Source of the DNA: a virus
Taxonomy: Duplodnaviria > Caudoviricetes
Length of the DNA: 64,000 nt
Virus record (IMG/VR): IMGVR_UViG_3300049988_000124
Coordinates: 128,001-192,000 of that record
Reading direction: 5' to 3' (one strand)
Shown here one piece after another: positions 27,549-55,230 of the stretch (its first letter is position 1; the number at the start of each line of letters is the position of its first letter). The position numbers were made by a program, and so were the translations under genes. The notes beneath the pieces are model-generated. The model was not told where the DNA came from. It searched no databases and worked only from the letters and a program-made list of their open reading frames with translations.

Positions 27549-27563
27549 CACTTGAGTAATATA
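27549..27563 (-). promoter_or_regulatory. Early-type promoter TATATTAC-TCAA-GTG
   Basis: Exact phiKZ early consensus TATATTAC about 55 nt upstream of the operon with the nvRNAP subunit. Confidence 0.65.
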
Positions 27564-29906: not shown

Positions 29907-29936
29907 AATGCTGTTTACCAATCGCGATTGGGTTAA

Positions 29937-29992: not shown

Positions 29993-30820
29993 TTACAAAT
30001 CAAAGTGCAGTTTGTTGTTCATCTCGAACTTAAGATCGATCCCGAGCGTTTCTGCCAACTCTACGGTCTCGTTCATCGATGCAAAGAAGCGGCGGAATAG
30101 TTCGCGCTTATTACCACCGGTTGGATCAAACATCTCTGGTGCACCACCATCGAGCACCTTCTTCGTAATACCCTTATCTGAGCTCCAATCAATCTTGTCG
30201 AACTGGCTCCAGTGACGAATGCACGAAACAAGATCAAACATTGACTTGTCTTTACCAACCACGCTGCCATCGAGATTGTATCGACGATCCTCGCTGTCGG
30301 AAAAGGTCACAGGCTTACCTGGAGCCGCAATAACACCAGTGATCGAGATCACCAGGCCCATGCGATTCAGATAATGAGACTTCTCACTAATCTCCGACTT
30401 ATCGGGGATAAGAGAAGCAAACCATGCTTTCATGGGCCAATGCTGGGGATGGACCCAGAGATAAGGCGACATTGGTTTGGTGGTTTGGCGAAGATCATCA
30501 GGGGCAATGACATCGACCAGATCACACGGGTTCTCTGTTTCAGGGAAACATTTTCCATCGGCGTAGAAGAGTTCGCCCTCGCTACTGTAATAGCGCAACC
30601 CTTCTTCATACTCAGCCGTACTTTGTTCGACCATTCCACAAAGGTCGACTCTGCGTGAACTCCTTGCCCGATAAGCCTGGGGTACCAGAAGCATCATAGA
30701 CGGGAGAAACGATGACACCAGTGAGCTCTCGCCCATACCGAGAATGTCAAGCATTCCACCCAGACCACCTTCTACTGGGTGACCCATACTCAAGAGCTGC
30801 CCAACTCCTTTAGCGTCCAT
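29993..30820 (-). CDS. Hypothetical protein
   Basis: 275 aa; GGAGGGTAGG upstream. Confidence 0.6.
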   Translation of the reverse strand: MDAKGVGQLLSMGHPVEGGLGGMLDILGMGESSLVSSFLPSMMLLVPQAYRARSSRRVDLCGMVEQSTAEYEEGLRYYSSEGELFYADGKCFPETENPCDLVDVIAPDDLRQTTKPMSPYLWVHPQHWPMKAWFASLIPDKSEISEKSHYLNRMGLVISITGVIAAPGKPVTFSDSEDRRYNLDGSVVGKDKSMFDLVSCIRHWSQFDKIDWSSDKGITKKVLDGGAPEMFDPTGGNKRELFRRFFASMNETVELAETLGIDLKFEMNNKLHFDL

Positions 30821-38909: not shown

Positions 38910-38970
38910 GATCTGAAACCTTTCGTTCTTGTTGCCGACAGTTCGGCAGGGGTAAATCGTTGACACTGAA

Positions 38971-40326: not shown

Positions 40327-40962
40327 TTACGCGCGCCGGTGGGCGACACCGACACCCAGGAGGGCACCGAAGCCGAGCCAGACGGCGTTGTTCTTCACCC
40401 AGTTGACGGTGTCGGTGCAGTTCTGCGAGAAGGTCTCGTAGATGCCCTGACGCTCGGCGGTCTTGGCCGCCTTCATCTCGAGCTTGGCGAGAAGCTCGGG
40501 TGCGAGCTCGTCCGGGTTGACCTGGCCGACGAAGTTGAGCTGCGAGAAGAAGCCGCCGCGCGTGAAGCCGTCGGGCCGGTAGTAGGAACCGTCCTGATCA
40601 GCGAAGCGGTAGCCGTCAGCGTAGAATCGCGAGCTCTCCGGCACGGTGCCGACGATCTTGCAGATCTGGTCGAGCCCGTTCAGATAGTAGCCGCCGATCT
40701 CGACGACTGCGTAGGGCGACTCGGGCGCGGGCTCCATGAAGGTGCACACGATGTCGTGAGCGTTCTTCTGCTCGACGGGCAGATCGCCCATCGTGCCGAC
40801 GACGCTGCCGTCCTCGCGGTAGTTGATGCCGTTGTCACCACGAAAACGGAAGCCGAGGTGATGCTCGGTCTCGTCCTCACCAAAGGCGTGGACCATGATG
40901 ACCTTGGCACCGACGGTGTCGACGAAGATGGTGCCGAGGGCGAGCTTGAGAGTATCGGACAT
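40327..40962 (-). CDS. Protein with two copies of the 60-aa G..Y..DG beta domain plus C-terminal anchor
   Basis: FRGDNGINYREDG and FADQDGSYYRPDG; C-terminal WLGFGALLGVGVA. Confidence 0.7.
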   Translation of the reverse strand: MSDTLKLALGTIFVDTVGAKVIMVHAFGEDETEHHLGFRFRGDNGINYREDGSVVGTMGDLPVEQKNAHDIVCTFMEPAPESPYAVVEIGGYYLNGLDQICKIVGTVPESSRFYADGYRFADQDGSYYRPDGFTRGGFFSQLNFVGQVNPDELAPELLAKLEMKAAKTAERQGIYETFSQNCTDTVNWVKNNAVWLGFGALLGVGVAHRRA

Positions 40963-40997
40963 GAGAGTATTCCTTTTTTCACTGATTGATGGGTGAT

Positions 40998-41031
40998 ACA
41001 TGACCTGAGGGCAAATGCCCTCAGGTCATGT
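40998..41031 (-). terminator. Hairpin
   Basis: Perfect 15-bp stem ACATGACCTGAGGGC-AAAT-GCCCTCAGGTCATGT. Confidence 0.7.
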
Positions 41032-41039
41032 GATGGGGT

Positions 41040-41747
41040 TTAATCGGGTGCAGTAACGAGCATCTGCCGTACCCAATCGGGCAGAGCGTTGAAGTTTTTG
41101 GTGGAGCGATCATGAATCTCGCCCTTCCACCTTACCCAATCCGACTGATGAGCTTCAACACCCTCAACAGCTCGGTCCCGATCACGCACAGAAGTTTGCG
41201 CGGCGAGCCAGGCGATGTCGTTCTTGAGCCACGGGTTCATGACCACACCTGCGGCCTTGAGTTGACTCATGATGTGGTTGAGGCCCTCGCGGACGTCGTG
41301 GTACCCTGCCCAGACCGGAGGCGGTGGATTCGCTTCACCTTCCTCGGGGTAGCGAACATAGGTACCCGAGCTAACTAGTGATCCTGGCATATGTCCACCG
41401 GTGGGTTGGAAGTTGTAGTGGAGATGAGCGACGTTGACCGACGGCTTACCGAATCCTTCCTTCTCGCCGTAGTCAGACGTGTAGGTGTCGAAGGTGAGGA
41501 GGAAACCGTCGCGGTGAGCGTAGACGTAGTAGGAGTCGGTACGCTCACGGCCGCAGTGGTTGTGCTGGAAGTCGTCCTTCAGCACCTGCTCGAAGCCCGA
41601 CTCGACGAACTTCTCCTGGTACTGCTCGAGGGACATACCGAAGTGGGTGTCACCCGACGACGTGAAGCTGTCGCGAAGCTCCTGGCGATCTTTCTCGTAT
41701 TGGAGACCGCTAGTCCACTCGTCCTCGTGTGGATTGTAGTAATCCAT
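41040..41747 (-). CDS. Hypothetical protein
   Basis: 235 aa; GAAAGGA RBS. Confidence 0.7.
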   Translation of the reverse strand: MDYYNPHEDEWTSGLQYEKDRQELRDSFTSSGDTHFGMSLEQYQEKFVESGFEQVLKDDFQHNHCGRERTDSYYVYAHRDGFLLTFDTYTSDYGEKEGFGKPSVNVAHLHYNFQPTGGHMPGSLVSSGTYVRYPEEGEANPPPPVWAGYHDVREGLNHIMSQLKAAGVVMNPWLKNDIAWLAAQTSVRDRDRAVEGVEAHQSDWVRWKGEIHDRSTKNFNALPDWVRQMLVTAPD

Positions 41748-41761
41748 GACGTGTCCTTTCG

Positions 41762-42001
41762 TTAACGAAAATTCTTGGCGATGAACTTGGCGTGGTCACC
41801 GTACCAGGTAACAGGACGGTTATACGCGTAGCGACACATCGGAATATCGGTGAATTGCACTTCGATGCGTTCGAGCTCTAGACCATCTGCCTGAACGTTA
41901 AGTACGTCATCGGCGGAGTCGTTCATCTCCTCGATCTTTTTGTTCTCACCGACGTTGAGGAGTTTGTCGGAGTGTCCGTTACGCTTGTAGTAGAGTGCCA
42001 C
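41762..42001 (-). CDS. Hypothetical protein
   Basis: GTG start; AAGGAG RBS. Confidence 0.6.
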   Translation of the reverse strand: MALYYKRNGHSDKLLNVGENKKIEEMNDSADDVLNVQADGLELERIEVQFTDIPMCRYAYNRPVTWYGDHAKFIAKNFR

Positions 42002-42041
42002 CTTACTTCTCCTTGGTTAGCTATTGGACATCGACTGGGTG

Positions 42042-42170
42042 TCAGTTGCCCTGGTGTGAGATTCGGTGTACGATTTTTCGCACCTTTCTGTAGAACTTGG
42101 CAAGGCGATTATACCTTGCCAGCTTCCGCCTGTCAGAACGTCGACGGTTATTAGCTGTTTTCCATCTCAT
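42042..42170 (-). CDS. Very basic 42-aa peptide
   Basis: MRWKTANNRRRSDRRKLARYNRLAKFYRKVRK; AGGGA RBS. Confidence 0.45.
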   Translation of the reverse strand: MRWKTANNRRRSDRRKLARYNRLAKFYRKVRKIVHRISHQGN

Positions 42171-42245
42171 GGATTTTTCCCTGATTGTTTGCTGATAGTT
42201 TATAAAGAGGGTGGACTCCGAAGAACCCACCCCAAATAGAAAATA

Positions 42246-42752
42246 TCAGTCCGGTTTGTAGACCGAGACGATGTTGTTCGCCGGGTCAGTGCTGAACATC
42301 TTCCTGCCGTCGGGAAGATAGCCCTTCTTGTTGGCGTCGTAGAAGCGGGGAAATTCGTCCTTGACTTCCTCGCAGATGAGAACGCGTCCGCCGTTACCGA
42401 GATTATACTCGGTGCCGACCCGAAGAGAGATGCCGGGCTTCTTGATCTCGATCATCCCGTTGGCATCCGCGTTGCGGTACGTATCATCGATCACGCGGAA
42501 GTGCTTGTCGGACTCCTCCCGGTCTTCCGGGCGGAGCGGAACGAGGCGGGTGATAGCACCGTTGTTGGTGAAGAGATCGTGAATGAACTCGGCTTCGATG
42601 AAACCGGTCATCGCACAACTCGACACAATGGTCCGGGTCTGGCGGAGACACTCCTCCAGTTCCGCGATGCGCTCCTTCAGCTTCGTGTTCTCCGAACGAA
42701 GAGGATTGTGTAGGAGACGATCTGCGAGCGTGGGTCCGTTATCATAGCTCAT
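42246..42752 (-). CDS. Coiled-coil protein with C-terminal G..Y..DG beta domain
   Basis: LRVGTEYNLGNGGRVLI...KGYLPDG...NIVSV. Confidence 0.7.
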   Translation of the reverse strand: MSYDNGPTLADRLLHNPLRSENTKLKERIAELEECLRQTRTIVSSCAMTGFIEAEFIHDLFTNNGAITRLVPLRPEDREESDKHFRVIDDTYRNADANGMIEIKKPGISLRVGTEYNLGNGGRVLICEEVKDEFPRFYDANKKGYLPDGRKMFSTDPANNIVSVYKPD

Positions 42753-42770
42753 GATTTTTCTCCCTAGAAT

Positions 42771-43334
42771 TTACAAGAGATTGAGAGTCTTCCTAACGGC
42801 AACTTCAGCTGCTCGCTTGCGAAGATCTTCCCAGTCGTCACTGATGTACGTATAAAGCATGAACTGATCGAGTGTCTGACCTCCTGCCCATTTAGGGAAA
42901 GAGGTCATCTCTCCGACTGCTTGAGCTACGGCAGCGACAATTTCATCGAAATGGTCTGGGAGCGGTTGCTGCTCGACCTTTTGAGGAGTCGAGATAACTT
43001 CGATGAGATCGCCGGGTGAATGATAGACACCGGCGCTGCGGTGCCATCCATCCCAGTGACCGTTAGCGTCGTAACAGCGCGTATCGCTGCCGAGGAAGAG
43101 CGTGTCGGTCTCGTTCATCGAGACGATGGTGACGACTTCATCGATCGCGTTGCGGTAGATACCGCCGACGACGACCACGATAGGATCGCGCTTGCTGGCA
43201 GCGAGGAGCTTCAGCTTGGCGACGATCGTTGTTGCTTGCGACTTGGTGATCCGACCATCGAGGGCAGGATACGTCCCCATTGAGTCAAAGACGCTGTCGA
43301 CGGCTTCTTGGTGAGTCAGTTCATTGATGTTCAT
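42771..43334 (-). CDS. Protein with central G..Y..DG beta domain
   Basis: VVGGIYRNAIDEVVTI...FLGSDTRCYDANG...DLIEV; AAGGAG RBS before ATG 43334. Confidence 0.7.
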   Translation of the reverse strand: MNINELTHQEAVDSVFDSMGTYPALDGRITKSQATTIVAKLKLLAASKRDPIVVVVGGIYRNAIDEVVTIVSMNETDTLFLGSDTRCYDANGHWDGWHRSAGVYHSPGDLIEVISTPQKVEQQPLPDHFDEIVAAVAQAVGEMTSFPKWAGGQTLDQFMLYTYISDDWEDLRKRAAEVAVRKTLNLL

Positions 43335-43420
43335 GATTACTCTCCTTGTTGATAGAGTTAAGACAGTATCTATTGCACCCGGACAGATGTTAAGTCCATT
43401 CGGATGCAAGGGTTAGTGTC

Positions 43421-43747
43421 TCAATAGTCGAACTTCTCACCCAGCGCAGTGAGGACGAGCACGAGACAGTCGAGAACGACCGCTACTTCATGCATTGCCC
43501 ACATGCGCCTGGAGACTTGCTCGAGCGCGGAGTTGTTGAGGTTCAACATGGGCGTGTACCCATCCTCCCCCTTAGTGCCCAGCGTGTAACCAGCAAGCAT
43601 GTCGACCTTCATCGAACTACTGTTGGTTATGTTGGCGACCAGCTGAACCTGGTCAAGACGGTTGAGGAGCGTTACCACCGCGACGTTGTCGGGGAAGAGC
43701 TTCGCTGTCTCTTGTACTTGGGTGATGATGTTTTTCTTGCTACCCAC
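43421..43747 (-). CDS. Hypothetical protein
   Basis: 108 aa; GGAG RBS with GTG. Confidence 0.6.
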   Translation of the reverse strand: MGSKKNIITQVQETAKLFPDNVAVVTLLNRLDQVQLVANITNSSSMKVDMLAGYTLGTKGEDGYTPMLNLNNSALEQVSRRMWAMHEVAVVLDCLVLVLTALGEKFDY

Positions 43748-43759
43748 GATGTTTCTCCG

Positions 43760-43996
43760 CTATGACCTAGAAGCCAACCGTTCCCGGCTACGGCTGGCAC
43801 GTAGATCTCGGTTTTTGTCCACCAAGTAATCAGGGACGTTCACTTTGTCCTTGGTGACTTTGTGAGTCACTTTGGTTTTCATGGACATCACCCGGTACTC
43901 AGTAGCGTTGCTGGTATCCGACACGATCTCGAACTCCTCGCTTCCCAGGGACGGACAGAGAACGAGATCGTGTTTCTTAAGACGCATTGCTGGCAT
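43760..43996 (-). CDS. Small SH3-like hypothetical protein
   Basis: LKKHDLV...FEIV...EYRV beta pattern. Confidence 0.55.
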   Translation of the reverse strand: MPAMRLKKHDLVLCPSLGSEEFEIVSDTSNATEYRVMSMKTKVTHKVTKDKVNVPDYLVDKNRDLRASRSRERLASRS

Positions 43997-43999
43997 CGG

Positions 44000-44239
44000 T
44001 CAGCTGATCTTCGAGAAGTGAATGAGGAAGGTCATCGGATCTCCGAAGATATCGAAGTAGATCACCTTCAACGTTGCCGTCCGTCCCTTGGCGTTCTCGA
44101 TCCTGACGACCCGTTCGGCCAGGCCGTCATACTCCTGAAGCTTCTCAGCCAGGTTGCGACACACCCTGGTCGTCAGACCAACGATACCTGCACTGCTGGC
44201 TGCCTTGAAGATTTCGTCGAAGAGTGGATTGTCAGACAT
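44000..44239 (-). CDS. Hypothetical protein
   Basis: 79 aa; AAGGA RBS. Confidence 0.6.
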   Translation of the reverse strand: MSDNPLFDEIFKAASSAGIVGLTTRVCRNLAEKLQEYDGLAERVVRIENAKGRTATLKVIYFDIFGDPMTFLIHFSKIS

Positions 44240-44253
44240 CGTACTGGTCCTTG

Positions 44254-44472
44254 TTAGACGCGAACGAAGCCGTTAGCCTCAGCCTGCGCAGCAGCCGCTT
44301 CCCAGAGCTTGGCCTGGGCGGTGTGAAACGCGACTTTCGCCTTCAGGGCAAAGTAGCGCGGCGGATAGCCGTTGATCTGGTCGATCTCGAGCTTCAGGAT
44401 GTTCACCTCGACGCGGTGCTTGCGAGCGACGTTGCGGCGAGTGGTGGCACACATTTCGGTCAGCTTGGTCAT
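44254..44472 (-). CDS. Small basic helical protein
   Basis: 72 aa; AGGAG RBS. Confidence 0.6.
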   Translation of the reverse strand: MTKLTEMCATTRRNVARKHRVEVNILKLEIDQINGYPPRYFALKAKVAFHTAQAKLWEAAAAQAEANGFVRV

Positions 44473-44520
44473 CGAACTTACTCCTGGTTAGATGTGAAAA
44501 GGTGGGTTGTAGTGTTGGGG

Positions 44521-44826
44521 TTAGATGAGGTTCTTCCACTTGGGAGAGAACAACATGGCGCCGTGGTAGGTATGATCATACCGGTAGATGATAAAGATCG
44601 AACTGATCTCACCATCGACATCGGTGGTGGACGAGACGGCGTAAGCCATCTTGTTCATGACAAGTTCACCCCGCAAGGTTTTCAACTCGTAGAGCATGAC
44701 GTAGAAGGTTTCGGCCGTAATTTCGAAAGGAGAATATACCTCCCAATCCAGAAACGACTTCCAGGTCGGCTTGTGGCCGTCCATGTCGGTGATCTGATCA
44801 CCGGGTGTGACAGATTTAAGTGTCAT
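44521..44826 (-). CDS. Hypothetical protein
   Basis: AAAGGAAG RBS before ATG 44826. Confidence 0.6.
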   Translation of the reverse strand: MTLKSVTPGDQITDMDGHKPTWKSFLDWEVYSPFEITAETFYVMLYELKTLRGELVMNKMAYAVSSTTDVDGEISSIFIIYRYDHTYHGAMLFSPKWKNLI

Positions 44827-44856
44827 GACATCTTCCTTTCTTAAAGAGTTAAAACG

Positions 44857-44870
44857 CACCTTTAATAGTA
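44857..44870 (-). promoter_or_regulatory. Variant promoter-like motif TACTATTA-AAG-GTG
   Basis: Intergenic; resembles 51223 copy. Confidence 0.35.
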
Positions 44871-44905
44871 CCCCGGCTCTGACCCAGGATACTAGAATAT
44901 ATGCG

Positions 44906-45136
44906 TTACTTCAGGAGGGCATCGCGCTGAGCCTTGAGGGCAGCGTATTTCTCCTGTTTGCGGGTAGGGAGATCGGCCAGACAGATCTCGTAGTCGCGAT
45001 CTGCGTCGTAGATTTTCTTCATCTCGTCCGTGAGTTCTTCGACTTTACTCATGATTTGAGCCTTTCCGAATTTAGTCGCCGTAGAAATTCCCGTGGAGAT
45101 AATAATCCTCGGGATCGAATGGTTCGAACGCACCAA
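44906..45136 (-). CDS. Small coiled-coil hypothetical protein (start uncertain, possibly MSKVEE)
   Basis: Fills the gap on the operon strand. Confidence 0.45.
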   Translation of the reverse strand: MVRSNHSIPRIIISTGISTATKFGKAQIMSKVEELTDEMKKIYDADRDYEICLADLPTRKQEKYAALKAQRDALLK

Positions 45137-45608
45137 CGACCACGGTTACCCCTGGACCATATTCCTTGGAAAGGAGCACGATGTGGGGGAGACCCATCGC
45201 CTTAGCGATAAGGTTGGTAACGCGGCGCATTGCGTCGCTCTGGGGTCGCCAGAACTCGAACATCTGATACTGCCGGGAGTTACACTGGTGAAACCACTGC
45301 AACTGCTTTGCCAGGTTCTTGTAGCAGAGTTGACGAAACTTCTCGATCTGCTCGATGTGGTCGGAGTAGAGCGTGAGACACACTCCCTTTCCTGGAACAG
45401 CATCACTCAAAACGAGCTGCTCTTTCTGGTCAGTGAAGAGTCGAGGATTTGCCTCAACGAACTCTATCACCTTTCCGAACTCGAGCAGGTTATCGACATC
45501 CGTGCCATCCGTGTCGATGGCAACGGCGTCGCGCAGGATCTGGTCAGCGGTCGGGATCGTGGTGTACCCGAAACGCAGACTGGTTTCCTGAAGACTCTTG
45601 GCGTCCAT
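45072..45608 (-). CDS. Hypothetical protein
   Basis: 178 aa; GAGGTG RBS. Confidence 0.6.
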   Translation of the reverse strand: MDAKSLQETSLRFGYTTIPTADQILRDAVAIDTDGTDVDNLLEFGKVIEFVEANPRLFTDQKEQLVLSDAVPGKGVCLTLYSDHIEQIEKFRQLCYKNLAKQLQWFHQCNSRQYQMFEFWRPQSDAMRRVTNLIAKAMGLPHIVLLSKEYGPGVTVVVGAFEPFDPEDYYLHGNFYGD

Positions 45609-45628
45609 GTGTCACCTCGTGTAAATGG

Positions 45629-46156
45629 TCAGCGGATACCCGCCTCGTATTGTTCTTTGGACACGCCCTTGAGGAGATAGTCATTCTCGTTGTATTCCGG
45701 CACGCATTCCGCCCGACAGAACACCACGGTGATACACGAACCCCGAAGGTCCTTGCTGTGGTGAAACTTGTAGTCGGTGTGACGCGAGACCCACTGCTCC
45801 ATGTAGGTACCACTGCCCGAGTAAGTCGGCCAGGGGAACTCCGGCGTGGAGTCGAGACTCACCACCATCTCGAGGAAGCGATCGTTTTTCATCTTAAGGA
45901 TGTTGACGATACGCGTGAGCTCGGGACTGGGTCGGAAGTCTGGTGGTAACGGATTGGCGTAAATCATGCCGGTAACCGGATCACCGGTTCCGAAGATGTC
46001 CGACAGATTGGGTTTGGTGTTGCGAGGACGACTGAGTGCGCCGCGTTCCATCCGCTGCGAGAAGGTGGGTTTTCCACCCATCGCTTCCCGCTCGGCGATC
46101 CGCGCATTGAGGCGCTCCAGTGCTTCCTTGCGCTTCTGTTCTTTCGACTTGGCCAT
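45629..46156 (-). CDS. Hypothetical protein with basic N-terminus
   Basis: 175 aa; GAGGAG RBS. Confidence 0.65.
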   Translation of the reverse strand: MAKSKEQKRKEALERLNARIAEREAMGGKPTFSQRMERGALSRPRNTKPNLSDIFGTGDPVTGMIYANPLPPDFRPSPELTRIVNILKMKNDRFLEMVVSLDSTPEFPWPTYSGSGTYMEQWVSRHTDYKFHHSKDLRGSCITVVFCRAECVPEYNENDYLLKGVSKEQYEAGIR

Positions 46157-46158
46157 GA

Positions 46159-46272
46159 CTAGCTCCTCACGATCAAACCAGTACGAAGATCCACGGCGTA
46201 CCGCAGACCATCGATGGTGACCCAGTCCACATTCTTCCTTCCGCCGGATGAATATAGCAAACTGGTTTTCAT
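46159..46272 (-). CDS. Small hypothetical peptide (37 aa)
   Basis: Not in track. MKTSLLYSSGGRKNVDWVTIDGLRYAVDLRTGLIVRS; GGGAGG RBS. Confidence 0.55.
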   Translation of the reverse strand: MKTSLLYSSGGRKNVDWVTIDGLRYAVDLRTGLIVRS

Positions 46273-46294
46273 AAAAACCTCCCTTGTCTAGCGT

Positions 46295-46462
46295 CTAGTC
46301 GCAGACGCCGGTTTTTCTCCACTCTTCAATGCGGCGACCGCATTGATCGTAGGTTGCGCCGCGCAAGTGGGTGTTGTGGACACCGCCTCGATGTTCCGGC
46401 TGCGAGTGGAGGATCAGACGGTATTTCTTCTTACCGTCCTTCCTGATTTCAGCGGTTGCCAT
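46295..46462 (-). CDS. Small basic hypothetical protein
   Basis: AAGGAG RBS before ATG 46462. Confidence 0.55.
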   Translation of the reverse strand: MATAEIRKDGKKKYRLILHSQPEHRGGVHNTHLRGATYDQCGRRIEEWRKTGVCD

Positions 46463-46473
46463 TAGGCTTCTCC

Positions 46474-46701
46474 TTAATTCTGATAAGGGTTGAGGATGAG
46501 CGCTTTCTGACGCTCGCTGAACGCGTTCAGCCAGAAGGTGTGACGCTCGTTGCCGATCTCCCACTCCGGATCGTCGTGATAGTCGATGCCGTACTTCTCC
46601 GTATATGCTGCACGCGCAACATCGGCGGCCGACTGGTGAATGTTGGTGTGGAACATGACCTCGCGGTCACCGGTCTGACTGGCAGGAATGGCGTAGGCCA
46701 T
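46474..46701 (-). CDS. Hypothetical protein
   Basis: GAAAGGA RBS before ATG 46701. Confidence 0.6.
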   Translation of the reverse strand: MAYAIPASQTGDREVMFHTNIHQSAADVARAAYTEKYGIDYHDDPEWEIGNERHTFWLNAFSERQKALILNPYQN

Positions 46702-46778
46702 GATGTGAAATCCTTTCATGGTGTAAATGGCAGATTGTGAAAAGGGCGGATACGAATACCCGCCCCTAACAGAAGCTG

Positions 46779-47417
46779 TCACTTGGGAAGCGGCATCCAC
46801 TCGAGGTTGGCCTCGTATGGATTTTCGGTGAACGCATCACCTTTCTGCCAACTCACCGCCTTCACTCCATTATGGGTCGTGAAGAACTTACCTTCCACCA
46901 GCTGCGCGACGACGGGCGTATGAGGAAATCCATCATCGTTATCGTTTCCACGTTGGCGAACGAGAACGTAAGATTCCTCAGCGGCAGGAAGGACAGAATC
47001 CTCGGTGAAAGGCTGGTACGACGACTGAGGCGAACGACTTACCATGCGAGGAATAACCGCGCAGGCGTTGATACCGCCTGCCGCCTGGAGCGCCGTGTCA
47101 CGACGCGCCGCAGAAGCGATGATCACACCGCTGCTACGCTGGACGACGTCGAATTCACACTCTCCCCTGGGTATGACCTGATACACACCCCTGGGATCAT
47201 GTCCCCCTTCGTAGCTGCTGGGTTCGCAGTGAGAAGCGTTCGCGAACCAGGCGATAACGCCCTTGGCGTCGATGGCATTCTGCGTCATTCGACCATCGAC
47301 GGTGATACAGAACCGCTCGGGCTTACCCTGGTAGTTCGTCCCGTCGAGGATATCGATTTCGACATTCTGACCATGACGGTCGGTGAAGTTGGCAAGATTG
47401 CCAGTCATCTCGGGCAT
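46779..47417 (-). CDS. Hypothetical protein
   Basis: 212 aa; GAAGGA RBS. Confidence 0.65.
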   Translation of the reverse strand: MPEMTGNLANFTDRHGQNVEIDILDGTNYQGKPERFCITVDGRMTQNAIDAKGVIAWFANASHCEPSSYEGGHDPRGVYQVIPRGECEFDVVQRSSGVIIASAARRDTALQAAGGINACAVIPRMVSRSPQSSYQPFTEDSVLPAAEESYVLVRQRGNDNDDGFPHTPVVAQLVEGKFFTTHNGVKAVSWQKGDAFTENPYEANLEWMPLPK

Positions 47418-47432
47418 GGAAATATCCTTCTT

Positions 47433-48053
47433 CTAGAGGGCAGCGGCGAGGTCGCGCTGACGACGCTTCTCGGCAGCATCGGCTTCGGCCTTGATGAGCT
47501 TGGGGCTCTTCTTGGTCGACAGCCAACCTTCGCGCTTCTCGTTGTCGGCGATGGTCGCGAGGACGTGGATGATGGTACCCTCGATCACCATCTTGCCTTG
47601 GGTGAAGATGAGGGTGGCGGTGTAGTGGTTCGAGCCGTCGTCGACGTCGCTGGGCGGTGCATTCCTGCGGAGCGCGTCGATAGCGTTTCCGGTCGAGGAA
47701 TACAGCGACACGCCCTGCATGACGAGAGCAAGGACGTCCAGCCGCATCTTAGACATACGCTCCAGCCCGTCACCCACGGTCTGAGCCACCGGGTCAAGAG
47801 CGGGGTTCGGTTTGTAGGTGAGCATCAGTAGATGATCACCGCCGACCTCGGCGACGTCGAGCGACGTCTGATGATCGGTGTCGACCAGGATGTTGCCCGA
47901 GTAGACCTCCTTGATCTCCCCGTCTGCGAACTTCGCCTGGTAATGGAGATGGGTGTGACCGTATCCGACGATCTTCACTTTCTCGTCCAGGTCAGCCGAG
48001 CTACCCGAACGGTTGGGCACAGCGACACGGTCGCCAATGAGCCAATTGTCCAT
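47433..48053 (-). CDS. Hypothetical protein with N-terminal Tudor/SH3-like module
   Basis: WLIGDRVAV...VKIVG...YQAKFADGEIKEV; GAAAGGA RBS before ATG 48053. Confidence 0.6.
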   Translation of the reverse strand: MDNWLIGDRVAVPNRSGSSADLDEKVKIVGYGHTHLHYQAKFADGEIKEVYSGNILVDTDHQTSLDVAEVGGDHLLMLTYKPNPALDPVAQTVGDGLERMSKMRLDVLALVMQGVSLYSSTGNAIDALRRNAPPSDVDDGSNHYTATLIFTQGKMVIEGTIIHVLATIADNEKREGWLSTKKSPKLIKAEADAAEKRRQRDLAAAL

Positions 48054-48072
48054 GGTGTAATCCTTTCTGCGT

Positions 48073-48243
48073 TTACTTGTTGGGGTTGAACCAGTAGCCA
48101 CCGTTCAGACGCCGAATTTCACGGCAATCATCTGCGACAGCGATACCCACCACCGCGACCAACATGGCCTCTCCGTACCGACCAAAGACGATCAGGAGGA
48201 GCACGAGGGCAGCGAGGATGATGAAGGGGAGAATGTCTTTCAT
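48073..48243 (-). CDS. Small membrane protein (56 aa)
   Basis: MKDILPFIILAALVLLLIVFGRYGEAMLVAVVGIAV. Confidence 0.6.
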   Translation of the reverse strand: MKDILPFIILAALVLLLIVFGRYGEAMLVAVVGIAVADDCREIRRLNGGYWFNPNK

Positions 48244-48285
48244 AGGACAAGTCCTTTCGAGTCGAAGAATAGTTACCGGCGAAAT

Positions 48286-48318
48286 AGTAGAGAGAGCCCA
48301 TGACGGGCTCTCTCTACT
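48286..48318 (-). terminator. Hairpin
   Basis: Perfect 14-bp stem AGTAGAGAGAGCCC-ATGAC-GGGCTCTCTCTACT. Confidence 0.7.
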
Positions 48319-48328
48319 GGTTAAGCGG

Positions 48329-48673
48329 TTAGGCGGGGACGGCGAGGTTGTCGTTGAGGACGAGCTCGCGCTGGGCGGTTGCGCCCTGGTTGACGTCACG
48401 CGCATCGATCCAGATACGGGTACGATGCATGTTGCTGATGCGGTTGCACATCAGGCGCAAGATGACCAGGCGACCGGAGACGACCGCGCCGTGATTGTCC
48501 TGCTTCTTGACCGGCACCCAGGCCAGGATCACGAAGGAACGGCTCCACCGACGGGTAGTGACCCCGGGCTGACGTCCGAGGACGATGCCGTAGTTGGTGA
48601 GGGGCGAGTACTGGGCGAGGAACCAGAAGGCGCGAAGGAGAACGCGGGCGAGCTGCTGAAGATAGATGTCCAT
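48329..48673 (-). CDS. Basic hypothetical protein
   Basis: 114 aa; C/G-ending codons; GGAAAGG RBS; overlapped 145 nt by the acyltransferase tail. Confidence 0.55.
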   Translation of the reverse strand: MDIYLQQLARVLLRAFWFLAQYSPLTNYGIVLGRQPGVTTRRWSRSFVILAWVPVKKQDNHGAVVSGRLVILRLMCNRISNMHRTRIWIDARDVNQGATAQRELVLNDNLAVPA

Positions 48674-49719
48674 GGGAATGCCTTTCCGTTAAAGAGCCAC
48701 AGAGTAAGTGCAAACTTACTCACGATGAACTCGTGGACCATCCACGAGATCGAGAACGAACCAACCGTAAGAATTGTGAAAAGAAACACGGGATTGGTAA
48801 CTTGGGTACTCAGGAGATAGAATAAGATCCCGAGCACGGGAACGTGAAACAGGTACACCGAGAAGCCGGACTGGCTGAGGCGGCGTACCAGATCGTTATT
48901 CTCTTGAACCCTCAAGGCTGTTGCCAGCACCGTAAAGCTCATGAGAACAGCGACCAGGGACATGATGAATGTCCGCAAGACCTTAAAGGCCGCACTGGCA
49001 CTGGGATCAGCGACCATATAGTAGACCGCGTTATACCAGCACATCGCCCCTAGAAGCGCGAAGACTCCGACCCAAGCCCACCGCGTGGAGGACATCCACG
49101 CACATAGTCCTTCTTGTCGTGAGACGAAGAACCCGGCTAGGTAGAATACCGCGTAATAAGGGGTAAGGACCGCGATCGTCGGTAAGATCTGCTCCCACTG
49201 GAGGAGATAGAGGATACCCCTGGACAATTGCGCGTTGCCGGTGGCCAACACCACGACGCCGAGCAAGAAGTACTTCGGGTAGGCCTTGATCTTAGCGTTG
49301 ATCCACCCACTCAATCCCGATTCATCGAGCATGTAGCCGAGCGGCGTGATAATCGATAGGACCAGGAGAAACCAGAGATGGTAAGGATTGGCAAATGTGA
49401 AAGAGCCACCTTTGACATCAATGGTGAAGGGTAGCACGAAGAGCCAGACGGCGAACGTCGGCACCAAGAGCTGTTCCAGTCGACGACCAATCGAGTACCG
49501 ACCGGCCACTTGGAGTCTTGCCATAAGAAACCCACTGATCGCGAAGAATGCTTCCATGCGAAACAGGTGGCTGGCGAAGAGGAAGTTGTCTGCCCATTGT
49601 AGAGGGTGGGCAGGGCTAGAAATATAGGATACGCTGTGAATGAGGGGACCTGCTAGAAGCAGGAAAGCGCGCCACGCATCGACCCCCAATATTCGATGCG
49701 GACGCGTCGCGATGTCCAT
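48529..49719 (-). CDS. Membrane acyltransferase family 3 (AT3), OpgC/MdoC-like
   Basis: Multi-TM; D..RA, H, FRMEAFFAISGF, HLWFLLVL, SVYLFH and C-terminal LFNGK motifs typical of OpgC-type AT3; AAGGAG RBS. Confidence 0.8.
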   Translation of the reverse strand: MDIATRPHRILGVDAWRAFLLLAGPLIHSVSYISSPAHPLQWADNFLFASHLFRMEAFFAISGFLMARLQVAGRYSIGRRLEQLLVPTFAVWLFVLPFTIDVKGGSFTFANPYHLWFLLVLSIITPLGYMLDESGLSGWINAKIKAYPKYFLLGVVVLATGNAQLSRGILYLLQWEQILPTIAVLTPYYAVFYLAGFFVSRQEGLCAWMSSTRWAWVGVFALLGAMCWYNAVYYMVADPSASAAFKVLRTFIMSLVAVLMSFTVLATALRVQENNDLVRRLSQSGFSVYLFHVPVLGILFYLLSTQVTNPVFLFTILTVGSFSISWMVHEFIVSKFALTLWLFNGKAFPWTSIFSSSPAFSFAPSGSSPSTRPSPTTASSSDVSPGSLPVGGAVPS

Positions 49720-49749
49720 TAAGGACTCCTTGTTTCCTAAAAGAGATAG

Positions 49750-49755
49750 GTCATA
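49750..49755 (-). promoter_or_regulatory. Late-type promoter motif TATGAC before the acyltransferase
   Basis: About 31 nt before ATG 49719, same spacing as for virion genes. Confidence 0.5.
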
Positions 49756-49767
49756 CCAGAGTGGGCT

Positions 49768-50379
49768 TTAATCATTCTCCTGCATCGAGAGGGTGTAGCC
49801 GTAATCGTAATCCTTAAACTCAGGCGAGCATTCGGGATACGGATTATTGCGACGATTGAGGGCCGAGGCATCAGCCCAGCCGTTCAGGTACGCCTCGCTC
49901 TTCTCGCCGGTCGTCTGGGCAGGCGCAGGCTCTGCTGTCAGAATCAGGTCCATAAAGGCCTGGAGGAACTTGTTGCCGCGCTCGATATTGTCCTGGGTTG
50001 CCCGCACGATCAAGAGCGGCTCGCCGTAATAGACGTTCATCCAGCCCAAGATCTTCGGGTCATCGAAACGAGCCGACGACTTATGGGTCGTGACGGTCAG
50101 GTCACCGACGATGGGATCGGTCGAACCACGAGTGCCGAGATCGGCGATATAGTTCTTGTCGCCGAAGACCCACACTTCGATCGGACCGTTGAGCGAGCGA
50201 CCCCACTTCTCAGTGAGGTTGACCTTCTTGCCGCCGATCTGCTTGTCGATCATGAGGCGTGCGAGCTTCTCACGAGCCACCGTGGTGGAACCGTGCTCGA
50301 ACTCGGACGAGCCCATGTAGTGGTAGTTGAAGCCGATGTCATCGTCGTTGACGAGCCGCTGGAGAAACATTGCAGTCAT
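49768..50379 (-). CDS. Hypothetical protein with YMGSSEFE motif and C-terminal Rmf/CrpP-like motif
   Basis: FNYHYMGSSEFEHG; AYLNGW...NPY....DYDYGY. Confidence 0.6.
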   Translation of the reverse strand: MTAMFLQRLVNDDDIGFNYHYMGSSEFEHGSTTVAREKLARLMIDKQIGGKKVNLTEKWGRSLNGPIEVWVFGDKNYIADLGTRGSTDPIVGDLTVTTHKSSARFDDPKILGWMNVYYGEPLLIVRATQDNIERGNKFLQAFMDLILTAEPAPAQTTGEKSEAYLNGWADASALNRRNNPYPECSPEFKDYDYGYTLSMQEND

Positions 50380-50392
50380 GATGATGCCTTTC

Positions 50393-50698
50393 TTAGATCT
50401 GCGACCGACTGTCCAGGTGCGCTTTCACGCGCCGGTGGAACTCATCATAGTCGTCCTTGTGGATGTAGATGGAATGGTAATTGCTCGAGTCGCCCTGGAA
50501 GCGCAGACCCTCGCCGAGGTTGGGGGAGCCGTGCTCACCCTTGATGTAGCGACAGGCGTACTGGTTCTGACCGAGCGCACGGTCGCCGTTGAACTCGCGA
50601 TAGCCAGCCTTGTCAGCCGAGTTATCGCACGGCTTGTCGTTACCGAGTCCGTGACAGAAGGGTCCGCTGTAATAGCCGTGTATTTTGCAATTGGGCAT
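50393..50698 (-). CDS. Cys/His-containing hypothetical protein
   Basis: AGAGGA RBS before ATG 50698. Confidence 0.6.
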   Translation of the reverse strand: MPNCKIHGYYSGPFCHGLGNDKPCDNSADKAGYREFNGDRALGQNQYACRYIKGEHGSPNLGEGLRFQGDSSNYHSIYIHKDDYDEFHRRVKAHLDSRSQI

Positions 50699-50727
50699 GG
50701 TAGCATTCCTCTTGTTTGAGTTGTAGG

Positions 50728-50922
50728 TCAATCGACCTGGTGAACCAGGTCTTCCTTGTCGGGCATCGAGTAGAACATCCGACCTTCCATGGTGTAGGAC
50801 ATGCCGTTGTCACCGTTCCAGCGGTAGCGACCGCCGCCCTTGTTGTATGAAGTGATGGTGACCTTGGTCTTACCATCGGCGGTGGTGTAGGTCTTGCCGA
50901 CCTCCATCTTCACAGTGGTCAT
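50728..50922 (-). CDS. Stand-alone G..Y..DG beta-domain protein
   Basis: MEVGKTYTTADGKTKVTI...WNGDNGMSYTMEG...DLVHQV. Confidence 0.7.
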   Translation of the reverse strand: MTTVKMEVGKTYTTADGKTKVTITSYNKGGGRYRWNGDNGMSYTMEGRMFYSMPDKEDLVHQVD

Positions 50923-50954
50923 GAATGATCTCCTTATCTCTATGAGTTACTGAA

Positions 50955-51188
50955 CTATTGCGGAAACCGATCGTGGACGTAGCCGCGCTTCACCATATCG
51001 GTGAGCTTCTCGGTGTACTTGGCGCGGACCACGTCGATCTTCTGATTGACCGACGTCTTGTCTTCACTATCTCCCATCCGCTCGCGGACCTTTTCCAAAG
51101 CACTCAGTGCCGTACCGTAGCATCCGAGGGCAGCGATGTCCACTTTCGTGACCGGAGGGGTGAACAGCTTCTTCATGAAATCGAGCAT
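50955..51188 (-). CDS. Hypothetical helical protein
   Basis: 77 aa; AGGAG RBS. Confidence 0.6.
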   Translation of the reverse strand: MLDFMKKLFTPPVTKVDIAALGCYGTALSALEKVRERMGDSEDKTSVNQKIDVVRAKYTEKLTDMVKRGYVHDRFPQ

Positions 51189-51222
51189 GGTAAGCTCCTG
51201 ATTAGAGGGGAATGAAATAACA

Positions 51223-51236
51223 CACTCTTAATAGTC
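51223..51236 (-). promoter_or_regulatory. Variant promoter-like motif GACTATTA-AGA-GTG
   Basis: Intergenic; resembles 44857 copy. Confidence 0.35.
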
Positions 51237-51276
51237 CCACCGATCGCACCGATGAGACTAGAATGGTTGTGTTGAG

Positions 51277-51432
51277 TTACGACTGGATGATCTTGGCGAT
51301 CTTCCTGCCGTTGTCGCGGATCTTGTTGATCTGAATGTAGATCATCAGACCCGTCCAGGCCGAGGCGACGAGGAGGCCCGACACCTTGGCGGTCTTCTGG
51401 GCGGCGCGGACGATCTTGAACTGCTTCTTCAT
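51277..51432 (-). CDS. Small single-TM protein (51 aa)
   Basis: Not in track. MKKQFKIVRAAQKTAKVSGLLVASAWTGLMIYIQINK; AAGGGA RBS. Confidence 0.6.
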   Translation of the reverse strand: MKKQFKIVRAAQKTAKVSGLLVASAWTGLMIYIQINKIRDNGRKIAKIIQS

Positions 51433-51456
51433 GGTAACGGGTATTCCCTTCTTCTT

Positions 51457-51467
51457 GGGGGGGGGGG
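51457..51467. repeat. G11 homopolymer (C11 on coding strand) upstream of an RBS
   Basis: Direct reading; intergenic. Confidence 0.8.
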
Positions 51468-51480
51468 TGAGGTGAGAGGG

Positions 51481-51675
51481 TTAGAGGAAGGCGGACATCA
51501 CCTTGGTGTAGAGTGCGCGACGAGCCTTGATGGCTGCGTCATGCGCTTCGATCACCGTGGGGATGGTGAAGTTGTTGCGGCTACGCTGGAGTTCCTCGAT
51601 GTTCTGGAGGAGCGAGATCTCGAGGAGATCCTTCTCGGCTTCGCTGAGCTCGACGGAGAGACGCTTAACGGACAT
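51481..51675 (-). CDS. Small helical hypothetical protein
   Basis: 64 aa; GAAAGGGA RBS. Confidence 0.6.
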   Translation of the reverse strand: MSVKRLSVELSEAEKDLLEISLLQNIEELQRSRNNFTIPTVIEAHDAAIKARRALYTKVMSAFL

Positions 51676-51714
51676 GATGTTTCCCTTTCTGGGATTAGAG
51701 GGTTGTGAGCGAAA

Positions 51715-51912
51715 CTACTTGATGCCGACGATGTCGTGGGCGGGATCGATGCAAGCACCGTCGACTTGATAGACGACATCGTTGCTACCGATATAGTAGG
51801 CGATGCCGGTATCGTTACCGTCATAGCCACCATCAGCCAAGCTGTCGACGATCGTGACTTCGTTGCCGGAATCGGTCAGGTAAGTGACCCGCGACGGAAA
51901 CTCGATGATCAT
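51715..51912 (-). CDS. Stand-alone G..Y..DG beta-domain protein
   Basis: YLTDSGNEVTIV...YIGSNDVVYQVDG...HDIVGI; GAGGAGG RBS. Confidence 0.7.
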   Translation of the reverse strand: MIIEFPSRVTYLTDSGNEVTIVDSLADGGYDGNDTGIAYYIGSNDVVYQVDGACIDPAHDIVGIK

Positions 51913-51928
51913 GGGAGTGACCTCCTCG

Positions 51929-52189
51929 TTACAGAGTCTTGGCGTGGACCTTGGCCCACTTGGTGTGCTGGTGGAAGTGGATGTCCCACAACCGAGCGCG
52001 CTCGCCCTCGCTCAGCCCGGCGTAGTCGCCGGACTGAGCAAACAGCTGACGCAGGATGCTCTGGTGATTGTCCATCTCCTCCTTGGCCTCCGCACGGATG
52101 CGAAGCAGCTTCACCTGCGCCGATGCACGGCGGGCAGCATGATAGGCGACGGTACCGAACACGAGCGTCTTGAGAATACGAATGATCAC
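51929..52189 (-). CDS. N-anchored coiled-coil mini-protein
   Basis: GTG 52189 after GAGGA; IIRILKTLVFGTVAYHAA. Confidence 0.6.
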   Translation of the reverse strand: MIIRILKTLVFGTVAYHAARRASAQVKLLRIRAEAKEEMDNHQSILRQLFAQSGDYAGLSEGERARLWDIHFHQHTKWAKVHAKTL

Positions 52190-52220
52190 GAGATAATCCT
52201 CTTCGTTGATGGTGGGAGAG

Positions 52221-52514
52221 TTAGACCGCGCGGCCGAAGAGCTGGCGGGTGATGCCCATGACGAGCGTGCCGACTGTCTCCTCGACCGAGGCCCCCTTCT
52301 CGGGCAGTTCGCAGATGAGGTCATCCAAGGTCTGGCCCTGGGTGCTCATCCAATTGGCGTTGCCGTCCTCGGTGTAGCGAACACCGTTGTCGCCGAGGAA
52401 GGGACGGAACATGTCGTGGCCCTTGTCGAAGATGTCGGTCTTCATCACGATGCGCACGGGGCGGCAGGTACGAGTCTGGTAGGTCTTGTTGACCTCGAGC
52501 TGGAAACGATCCAT
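52221..52514 (-). CDS. G..Y..DG beta-domain protein
   Basis: LEVNKTYQTRTCRPVRIV...FLGDNGVRYTEDG...DDLICEL. Confidence 0.7.
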   Translation of the reverse strand: MDRFQLEVNKTYQTRTCRPVRIVMKTDIFDKGHDMFRPFLGDNGVRYTEDGNANWMSTQGQTLDDLICELPEKGASVEETVGTLVMGITRQLFGRAV

Positions 52515-54372: not shown

Positions 54373-54387
54373 CACTTTAGTAGTATA
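54373..54387 (-). promoter_or_regulatory. Early-type promoter TATACTAC-TAAA-GTG
   Basis: One mismatch to consensus; upstream of the phosphatase. Confidence 0.55.
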
Positions 54388-55215: not shown

Positions 55216-55230
55216 CACGCTAGTAATGTA
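55216..55230 (-). promoter_or_regulatory. Early-type promoter TACATTAC-TAGC-GTG
   Basis: One mismatch; heads the large accessory tract. Confidence 0.55.

What the first reader, a model, noticed from the sequence alone, without database searches (positions are those of the whole stretch)
40327..52514. Expanded family of an uncharacterised 60-aa beta domain (7 copies in 6 genes)
The consensus is l.vG..Y.t..G..V.I - variable loop - F.G.nG..Y..dG - (h/d)Dlv. It occurs twice in 40327..40962 and once each in 42246, 42771, 50728, 51715 and 52221. It is stand-alone or fused to coiled coils or a TM anchor. The scaffold is fixed while the central loop is hypervariable, as in a diversified binder repertoire such as anti-defence or host-protein inhibitors (inference). 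This is the best candidate here for an undescribed system.
Basis: partly seen in the sequence, partly recalled or inferred. Interest (0 to 1): 0.72.

Follow-up and report, generated by a model that had tools for sequence, protein, structure and literature searches.

The report
Uncatalogued phage beta-barrel domain family
The seven copies are real members of a widespread, still unnamed phage domain of about 65 residues with an SH3/Tudor-like barrel fold; this giant phage has multiplied it to at least 14 copies, but its function is unknown and nothing shows a hypervariable binder repertoire.

Summary
All seven copies match a profile built only from unrelated metagenomic proteins (E 1e-7 to 1e-18). 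The 308-kb phiKZ-like genome holds 14-15 copies in 12 genes. A profile of the copies finds 792 protein clusters (E<=1e-3) among 1.84 billion representatives. These are mostly phage proteins, with one to eight tandem copies. Consensus: LKLEVGKTY.tR.G..V.IV-loop-YPF.GdnG..YTedG-loop-DLVEEV.

No Pfam, NCBIfam or PDB entry covers the domain. PHROGs holding canonical members are marked 'unknown function'. AlphaFold2 gives a confident small all-beta barrel (pLDDT 88) of SH3/Tudor/KOW type, with only weak matches to solved structures (Z<=5.4).

The loops differ between old paralogs but are conserved between orthologs. The genome has no reverse transcriptase, and no copy matches a known anti-defence family.

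The clues to function are indirect:
- Relatives are fused to MazZ-like pyrophosphohydrolase domains, once to a Tad2-like domain, and to many unknown modules.
- Some members carry tail anchors.
- One two-copy member always sits just upstream of the virion RNA polymerase gp149 homologue.

Most likely this is a non-catalytic binding or adaptor module. It is a new family with a known fold, of moderate interest.

The parts
40327..40962 (-). 211-aa protein with two copies of the domain (DNA 40744-40962 and 40507-40722), then a long helix ending in a C-terminal hydrophobic tail anchor
   Evidence: ext.hmm domain E 5.5e-9 and 2.4e-10. AF2 gives two barrels at pLDDT >90, a flexible linker and helix 155-210, pTM 0.48. 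The architecture is conserved in P0020/21/40/43/44.
42246..42752 (-). 168-aa protein with a coiled-coil-like N-terminal part and one domain copy at the C-terminus (DNA 42249-42452)
   Evidence: ext.hmm E 5.6e-8. It is 51% identical to residues 230-364 of P0033, where it is fused with the homologue of the upstream gene.
42771..43334 (-). 187-aa protein (start corrected to the ATG at 43334) with one central domain copy (DNA 42960-43187)
   Evidence: ext.hmm E 3e-12 and A4 six-frame E 9.8e-12. P0033 residues 1-118 align from residue 26 of the longer ORF. Shine-Dalgarno ACAAGGAG.
50728..50922 (-). 64-aa stand-alone single-domain protein, the most canonical copy in the window
   Evidence: ext.hmm E 4.6e-18. 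AF2 pLDDT 88.2, all-beta. A 79%-identical orthologue is P0151.
51715..51912 (-). 65-aa stand-alone single-domain protein, the most divergent and most acidic copy (pI 4.05)
   Evidence: ext.hmm E 1.4e-7, A4 six-frame E 6.3e-5, leave-one-out only E 0.058, pI.
52221..52514 (-). 97-aa protein with one domain copy (DNA 52299-52514) and a short hydrophobic C-terminal tail
   Evidence: ext.hmm E 5.8e-17. Orthologues are P0031 (96%), P0143, P0104 and P0131. P0143 has a TM-like tail.
29993..30820 (-). It is always found immediately upstream of the virion-RNAP gp149 homologue.
   Evidence: ext.hmm E 2.5e-9 and 2.8e-8. About 10 orthologous clusters. The adjacency is kept in 3 of 3 relatives.
29241..29921 (-). 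Context: homologue of phiKZ gp149 (virion RNA polymerase beta-like subunit), directly downstream of the 275-aa two-copy member
   Evidence: phrog_3233 E 8.9e-59. It is 32% identical to phiKZ PHIKZ149, E 1.2e-28.

Best explanation
The seven copies belong to a genuine, phage-borne and so far uncatalogued domain family of about 60-70 residues. The fold is a five-stranded SH3/Tudor/KOW-like beta-barrel. The residues that stay conserved look like fold determinants (turn glycines, core aromatics and aliphatics, and the DL of the last strand): G9, Y12, G17, I23, Y43, G47, D58, L59.

The proteins have no signal peptide and are mostly acidic, so they act in the cytoplasm or, when tail-anchored, on its membrane face. 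The domain is not catalytic. It most likely works as a binding or adaptor module whose two variable loops and strand surfaces give each paralogue its own partner. When it is fused or arrayed, it would tether or multimerise other modules, such as a MazZ-like pyrophosphohydrolase, a Tad2-like sponge, membrane anchors, coiled coils and many unknown domains.

In this 308-kb phiKZ-like phage the family has grown to 14-15 copies in 12 genes. Six genes lie in a co-directional block of small accessory genes, and one lies inside the virion-RNA-polymerase gene cluster. The paralogues are old and individually conserved; they are not an actively diversifying repertoire.

Shown: the family, its fold class, its architectures, its distribution, and loop conservation among orthologues. 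Inferred: the binding/adaptor role and the cellular location. The target is unknown.
For: Family reality:
- Leave-one-out and external-only profiles support every copy.
- 792 representative clusters match at E<=1e-3 and 94 at <=1e-10.
- Tandem arrays reach 8 copies, and one 5-kb contig has 3+4+8 copies in three adjacent genes.

Fold:
- AF2 pLDDT is 88 for the 64-aa protein, and each barrel of the two-copy protein scores >90.
- The nearest solved folds are Tudor/KOW/CarD/BAH-core/FlgD barrels at Z 4-5.4.
- BFVD and ESM Atlas neighbours at TM 0.7-0.8 are all uncharacterised phage proteins.

Not catalytic, and modular:
- The conserved columns are Gly, aromatic and aliphatic residues plus one Asp.
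- The tails are diverse, and one tail family occurs either N- or C-terminal to the domain.
- Fusions among 144 members: dGTP_diPhyd_N x4, DUF6378 x2, Tad2-like x1.
- In relatives, 42771 and 42246 form one fused gene, and a domain copy is fused to the homologue of window gene 44906-45136.

Charge and anchoring:
- 68% of domain instances are net negative, median pI 5.3.
- TM tails occur in 7 of 144 members and in gene 40327.

Phage context:
- External members sit among ERF/YqaJ, DNA polymerase A/exonuclease and primase genes, in runs of small ORFs.
- The cultured Sinorhizobium phage phiN3 carries a member, gp272, annotated 'hypothetical protein'.

Loops are conserved within orthologous groups.
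Against: - No binding partner, ligand or phenotype is known for any member, so the adaptor role rests on architecture alone.
- Structural matches to Tudor/KOW barrels are weak (Z<=5.4, no Foldseek PDB match at E<=1e-3) and carry no functional information.
- Canonical external members keep polar K/T/R residues in GKTYxxRxG that the window copies have lost. The family may therefore not share one function.
- Three window copies (42246, 42771, 51715) are weak in within-genome leave-one-out tests and rely on the external profile.
Confidence: 0.6

Rival explanations
1. One reading: the paralogues are a diversified repertoire of inhibitors aimed at host defence or other host proteins. The fixed barrel would present a hypervariable loop.
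For: - The six genes lie in a block of small accessory genes.
- Three of the six have no orthologue in a related 270-kb phage, which carries other copies instead.
- One external member carries a Tad2-like domain and six carry MazG/MazZ-like domains.
- A proven counter-defence protein, Nip of phage phi3T, is built from two SH3-like domains plus a dimerisation domain (PMC11984713).
Against: - The loop is not hypervariable between orthologues.
- The genome has no reverse transcriptase, so no diversity-generating retroelement.
- The domain has no detectable relation to Tad2-like (hhalign probability 0.6%) or to Nip (3.5 bits).
- The suggestive fusions occur in 7 of 144 members. They say more about the partner domains than about this one.
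Confidence: 0.2
2. The domain is a Tudor-like RNA-polymerase-binding module. Members would be transcription accessory factors for the phage's own multisubunit polymerases or for the host enzyme.
For: - The 275-aa two-copy member lies immediately upstream of the phiKZ gp149 (virion RNAP) homologue.
- This pairing is kept in 3 of 3 relatives, although the member is only 31-49% identical between them against 67-81% for the polymerase piece.
- Several of the nearest solved folds are RNAP-binding barrels: CarD, the UvrD/PcrA Tudor domain, Mfd, the RapA N-terminal domain and the Spt5/NusG KOW domain.
Against: - Those structural matches are tied at Z about 4 with unrelated barrels such as BAH, FlgD and PsaE.
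- phiKZ and Psa21 encode the polymerases but have no copy of the domain.
- Gene adjacency is known for one member only, and most members occur in phages without multisubunit RNAPs.
Confidence: 0.12
3. The barrel itself binds a nucleotide or a signalling molecule, acting as a sponge or sensor domain.
For: The recurrent fusions are to nucleotide-handling domains: MazZ-like dGTP_diPhyd_N, DUF6378 and Tad2-like. Many members are small stand-alone or tandem proteins, like the known sponges.
Against: No conserved polar pocket is evident, since the conserved columns look structural. The window copies have lost the K/T/R residues of the canonical motif. No relation to Tad2-like was detected.
Confidence: 0.07
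4. The resemblance is chance or compositional, and there is no real domain.
For: Pairwise BLAST E-values between copies are marginal. Six giant repeat proteins among the first 150 profile hits were spurious.
Against: The external-only profile hits all copies at E 1e-7 to 1e-18. Hundreds of self-consistent relatives exist. The fold is predicted with confidence.
Confidence: 0.01

Closest known systems
SH3-like small beta-barrels of the Tudor/KOW/CarD type (for example CarD N-terminal domain 4l5g, Spt5 KOW 4zn3, RDM15 Tudor 7de9, UvrD/PcrA C-terminal Tudor 7egs/5dma)
   Same: Size (about 60 aa), five-strand all-beta barrel, frequent tandem use, non-catalytic binding role. Z 4.0-4.5 over 47-52 aligned residues.
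   Different: - No sequence relation: the profile search of the PDB gave E>=0.086.
- Z is well below the level that marks homology.
- The aromatic-cage and RNAP-contact residues were not examined.
- The best single hit is an unrelated 47-aa chain, 8s7v_L, at Z 5.4.
Nip (phi3T_120), counter-defence protein against SpbK (PMC11984713)
   Same: A phage accessory protein of about 279 aa with two N-terminal SH3-like domains followed by a C-terminal module. This layout is very like the 275-aa two-copy member and the many external forms with two copies plus a tail.
   Different: It is not a sequence relative: 3.5 bits against the family HMM, and no A4 match anywhere in phi3T. Nip's tail is HU-like, and the tails here are unrelated and unknown. 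It is an analogy of architecture only.
PHROG families phrog_22518 and phrog_23578 (both 'unknown function')
   Same: Canonical external members match them (E 1.4e-22 and 1.7e-8), so the domain already sits unnamed in phage protein clusters.
   Different: None of the six window proteins matches any PHROG at E<=0.1. The PHROGs carry no function or domain definition.
Pfam DUF4222 (PF13973)
   Same: Four of 144 external members match at E<=1e-4 for the whole protein, best 3e-7. In the member examined, P0004, the best stretch is a 25-residue N-terminal hairpin (G..Y..R.G..V.I; residues 68-92), and no single stretch passes the threshold on its own.
   Different: The match is partial and is not shown to reach the gathering score. 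No window copy and nothing in the genome matches. DUF4222 itself has no known function.
Other small-protein paralogue expansions in large phages, such as the SH3-like barrel paralogues of phiEco32-like phages noted earlier in this scan (e1-158098)
   Same: Multiplied, unannotated, small beta-barrel proteins in accessory regions of virulent phages.
   Different: It is a different family: profile A4 finds nothing in phiEco32 at E<=0.1.

Membership tests
The new family itself (LKLEVGKTY...GDNG.YT.DG...DLVEEV domain) | Significant match to a profile built only from external members | tested here: met
   All seven copies score E 1.4e-7 to 4.6e-18 against 2174 ORFs. Six of the seven also match in the six-frame search with A4 at E<=0.01.
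SH3/Tudor/KOW-like small beta-barrel fold | Five-stranded all-beta barrel of about 60 residues, superposable on solved members | tested here: inconclusive
   The AF2 model is all-beta with pLDDT 88. Tudor, KOW and CarD barrels align at Z 4.0-4.5, rmsd 2.0-3.1 over 47-52 residues, but Z<8 and Foldseek finds no PDB hit at E<=1e-3.
Pfam DUF4222 (PF13973) | HMM score above the gathering cut-off (27 bits) | tested here: not met
   The six proteins give no hit at E<=1. The best hit in the genome is 7.6 bits, at an unrelated place.
Pfam PF26890 (Phage_HP1_YO09), suggested by one Atlas cluster (11% of members) | Detectable homology to HP1 orf9 and its relatives | tested here: not met
   hhalign of A4 against an alignment of 10 PF26890 proteins gives probability 0.2%. 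The family HMM scores HP1 orf9 at 1.1 bits. The Pfam model itself is not in the local library.
Pfam PF24203 (Phage_ProQ_C_like) and PF07866 (DUF1653), structural neighbours in the Atlas | HMM match in the genome | tested here: not met
   Neither model gives a match at E<=10 in a six-frame search of the genome.
Tad2-like anti-Thoeris sponge (PF11195) | Sequence homology of the barrel to the Tad2-like domain | tested here: not met
   hhalign of A3 against the Tad2-like part of P0139 gives probability 0.6%. Pfam finds no PF11195 hit on the window proteins. The two domains only co-occur in one protein.
Nip-type counter-defence proteins (phi3T_120) | Sequence homology to Nip | tested here: not met
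   3.5 bits against the family HMM. A4 finds no match in phi3T.
DGR-diversified binder repertoires | Reverse transcriptase in the genome, and changes focused in the variable region between close relatives | tested here: not met
   No RVT_1 match at E<=0.01. The 4 changes between 52221 and P0031, and the changes between 50728 and P0151, are scattered and not in the central loop.
Known anti-defence function of any kind | Experimental counter-defence phenotype or binding to a defence protein or signal | not testable with these tools
   No assay was possible, and no anti-defence profile library was on hand.

The most novel reading that the evidence does not exclude
The barrel is a phage-specific targeting adaptor. 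Each paralogue would dock on a different host or phage machine, such as a defence protein or the injected virion RNA polymerase. Fusions would deliver effector modules (nucleotide hydrolases, sponges, membrane anchors) to these targets. That would make this a modular host-takeover and counter-defence toolkit shared by hundreds of uncultured phages.
Probability: 0.2. Interest if true: 0.7.

Novelty: new member of a known kind. Interest (0 to 1): 0.45.

Why it matters
A domain found in about 800 protein clusters (at 50% identity), almost all from phages, has no entry in Pfam, NCBIfam or the PDB and no described function. It is repeatedly multiplied: 14-15 copies in this phage, and 15 copies in three adjacent genes elsewhere. 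It is also joined to modules tied to nucleotide metabolism and to counter-defence. Defining it as a family would annotate hundreds of 'hypothetical' phage proteins. It would also give concrete targets for interaction screens, above all the two-copy protein that always accompanies the virion RNA polymerase gp149 homologue, and the Tad2 and MazZ fusions. By itself, without a function, it is a solid new domain of unknown function and not a new kind of system.

Tried and rejected
- Pfam, PHROGs and NCBIfam gave nothing for the six proteins.
- megablast and tblastn against 50,697 phage records gave no significant match. BLAST is too insensitive for this family.
With the 275-aa protein or its alignment it found no relative in IMG/VR.
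- The search for homologous proteins with alignment A3 returned only two close hits, because of word-index limits.
- Profile search of PDB sequences: best E 0.086. Foldseek against the PDB: nothing at E<=1e-3.
- Homodimer prediction for the 64-aa protein gave no verdict, so it is evidence neither way.
- Relations tested and rejected: PF26890/HP1 orf9, PF24203 and PF07866, DUF4222 for the window copies, the Tad2-like domain, Nip, the neighbouring five-barrel 519-aa protein, and the phiEco32 paralogue family.
- MORN, YD or tail-fibre repeats: six giant repeat proteins among the first hits matched only profile positions 31-57 and fail the external HMM, so they were discarded as spurious.
- Early-promoter timing: the exact phiKZ-type TATATTAC occurs only at 27556 and 33531 (minus strand). 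One-mismatch copies are no more frequent than chance (18 found, 14.8 expected). The expression class of the block is therefore left open.
- The Atlas search of the 275-aa protein gave nothing usable.

Full report
**Setting.** The window is bases 128001-192000 of a single 307,821-bp phage contig. Large genes match phiKZ-type families (phrog_3004, 3184, 3222, 2927), and the DNA polymerase is about 27% identical to those of Psa21 and Noxifer. This is therefore a distant phiKZ-like jumbo phage. Earlier notes of this scan place it in leaf metagenomes with a probable sphingomonad host; I did not test that. The six genes of the finding lie on the minus strand, in a long co-directional run of small genes between about 55 kb and 37 kb. 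The run also holds an AT3 acyltransferase and a NinI-like phosphatase. Each of the six has a good Shine-Dalgarno motif.

**Is the repeat real?** Pairwise BLAST between the copies is marginal, but profile methods settle the question.
- Leave-one-out HMMs recover the left-out member at E 2e-6 to 5e-5 for 40327, 50728 and 52221. For 42246, 42771 and 51715 they give only 0.002 to 0.06.
- A profile of ten copies, searched against 1.84 billion representative proteins, found 792 proteins at E<=1e-3 and 94 at E<=1e-10.
- Six giant glycine-rich repeat proteins among the top 150 are spurious. The rest form a strikingly coherent family with the consensus LKLEVGKTYxxRxGxxVxIV - loop - YPFxGxxGxxYxxxG - loop - DLxEEV.
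- An HMM made only from 256 external instances then hits all seven window copies at E 1.4e-7 to 4.6e-18.
- A six-frame search of the genome with the external-only alignment A4 gives ten matches at E<=0.01.

**Extent in this genome.** The same HMM finds two copies in a 275-aa protein at window 29993-30820. It also finds copies at genome 23696-23950, 39570-40127, 211460-211741(+), 225817-226536 and 245482-246093, plus a marginal one at 6378-6611. The total is 14-15 domains in 12 genes.

**Fold.** AlphaFold2 models the 64-aa protein as an all-beta domain with pLDDT 88. In the two-copy protein each barrel scores above 90, the linker is flexible, and a long helix runs into a hydrophobic C-terminal tail. 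The pTM of 0.48 means the two barrels are beads on a string. Foldseek finds no PDB match at E<=1e-3. The exhaustive aligner gives at best Z 5.4 (8s7v_L), followed by a plateau at Z 4-4.7. That plateau holds SH3-like barrels such as Tudor, KOW, CarD, BAH-core and FlgD domains. In BFVD and the ESM Atlas the close neighbours (TM 0.7-0.8, Foldseek probability 1.0) are all uncharacterised phage proteins. The fold class is therefore SH3/Tudor-like, but no homology to a characterised superfamily is shown.

**Is it catalogued?** It is not.
- Pfam matches nothing on the window proteins.
- Among 144 external members Pfam matches only partner domains and a partial DUF4222 hairpin.
- 121 relatives carry no precomputed Pfam hit on the barrel, although that annotation includes families as recent as PF26890.
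- NCBIfam gives nothing, and a profile search of PDB sequences gives nothing.
- Canonical members fall in phrog_22518 and phrog_23578, both marked 'unknown function'.
- Leads from the Atlas were tested and rejected: PF26890/HP1 orf9 (hhalign probability 0.2%), and PF24203 and DUF1653.
- Literature searches found no description.
- A cultured example exists. Sinorhizobium phage phiN3 gp272 is annotated 'hypothetical protein' and matches at E 6e-13. phiKZ, Psa21, HP1, phiEco32 and phi3T have none.

**Architecture and context elsewhere.**
- Of 142 external proteins, 45 have one copy, 82 have two, and the rest have three to eight.
- One 5-kb contig has three adjacent genes with 3, 4 and 8 copies.
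- Tails are diverse and mostly unknown, and one tail family occurs on either side of the barrel.
- Recognisable partners are dGTP_diPhyd_N (4 members), DUF6378 (2) and a Tad2-like domain (1).
- TM-like tails occur in 7 of 144 members.
- Neighbourhoods are phage replication, recombination or mobile-element regions full of small ORFs.
- Domain instances are mostly acidic, with a median pI of 5.3. This argues against general nucleic-acid binding.

**The 'hypervariable loop'.** Both loops vary in length among paralogues: loop 1 is 9-22 residues and loop 2 is 7-18. Among orthologues the picture is different.
- Gene 52221 differs from P0031 at four scattered positions, none in the central loop.
- Gene 50728 and its 79%-identical orthologue keep the loop nearly unchanged.
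- In the 40327 subfamily the loop motif TPe.AEY..GFRF is conserved across proteins that share only about 30% identity.
- The genome has no reverse transcriptase.

The paralogues are thus old, and each is individually constrained. A related 270-kb phage shows turnover at the gene level. There, 42771 and 42246 are one 367-aa gene. Genes 50728, 51715 and 52221 have no clear orthologue in it, while other copies are present. One of those copies is fused to the homologue of window gene 44906-45136.

The 275-aa two-copy protein has an invariant WVHPQH motif between its barrels. It lies directly upstream of the homologue of phiKZ gp149, a virion RNA polymerase subunit. The pair is kept in all three relatives that could be read. 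The 275-aa protein is only 31-49% identical between them, against 67-81% for the polymerase piece. Several RNAP-binding Tudor/KOW barrels are among the weak structural neighbours. Together this supports a transcription-factor rival, but only for this member and only by association.

**Verdict.** This is a real, widespread, unnamed phage domain with a common fold. It is most likely a non-catalytic binding or adaptor module (confidence 0.6). An anti-defence repertoire (0.2), RNAP binding (0.12) and ligand binding (0.07) remain open.

Noticed in passing
window 29993-30820 with 29241-29921: A 275-aa protein with two barrels and an invariant WVHPQH motif is a conserved upstream neighbour of the virion-RNAP gp149 homologue in 3 of 3 related contigs. 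It evolves much faster than the polymerase piece.
   Followed up: partly
window 42246-43334: The adjacent genes 42771 and 42246 correspond to the N- and C-terminal parts of a single 367-aa protein (P0033) in a related 270-kb phage. This is a gene split here or a fusion there.
   Followed up: partly
window 44906-45136; L021:3799-4206: The 76-aa product of this small window gene is 66% identical to the C-terminal 41 residues of a 135-aa protein in the related phage. The N-terminus of that protein is a copy of the barrel, so this is domain shuffling between relatives.
   Followed up: no
window 37407-38966: A 519-aa protein with about five tandem repeats of another barrel-like module ((D/Y)(H/Y)P.G.R.L pattern) lies next to the block. 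hhalign finds no relation to the family studied here (probability 0.2%).
   Followed up: partly
window 40998-41032: A perfect 15-bp inverted repeat (CACATGACCTGAGGG...CCCTCAGGTCATGT) lies right after the stop of gene 41040-41747 and before the start of 40327-40962, with no T-run. It may be a processing or attenuation hairpin.
   Followed up: no
L007:1780-4616: A 5.1-kb metagenomic contig carries three adjacent genes with 3, 4 and 8 tandem copies of the domain (15 in all), next to a Metallophos_2-like gene.
   Followed up: no
L025:1-12370: In a bacterial assembly, a 214-aa member lies in a mobile-element region with a 2524-aa polyvalent protein (PBECR1/LPD23/Kinase-PolyVal), DUF6378, a DnaG zinc ribbon and a VapE-like primase. 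The 214-aa layout of barrel plus a conserved tail of about 150 aa recurs in dozens of clusters.
   Followed up: no
window 54380-54387 and 55223-55230 (minus strand): One-mismatch variants of the phiKZ early core (TATACTAC, TACATTAC) sit in the intergenic spaces that head the accessory block. Such variants are no more frequent in the window than chance.
   Followed up: partly
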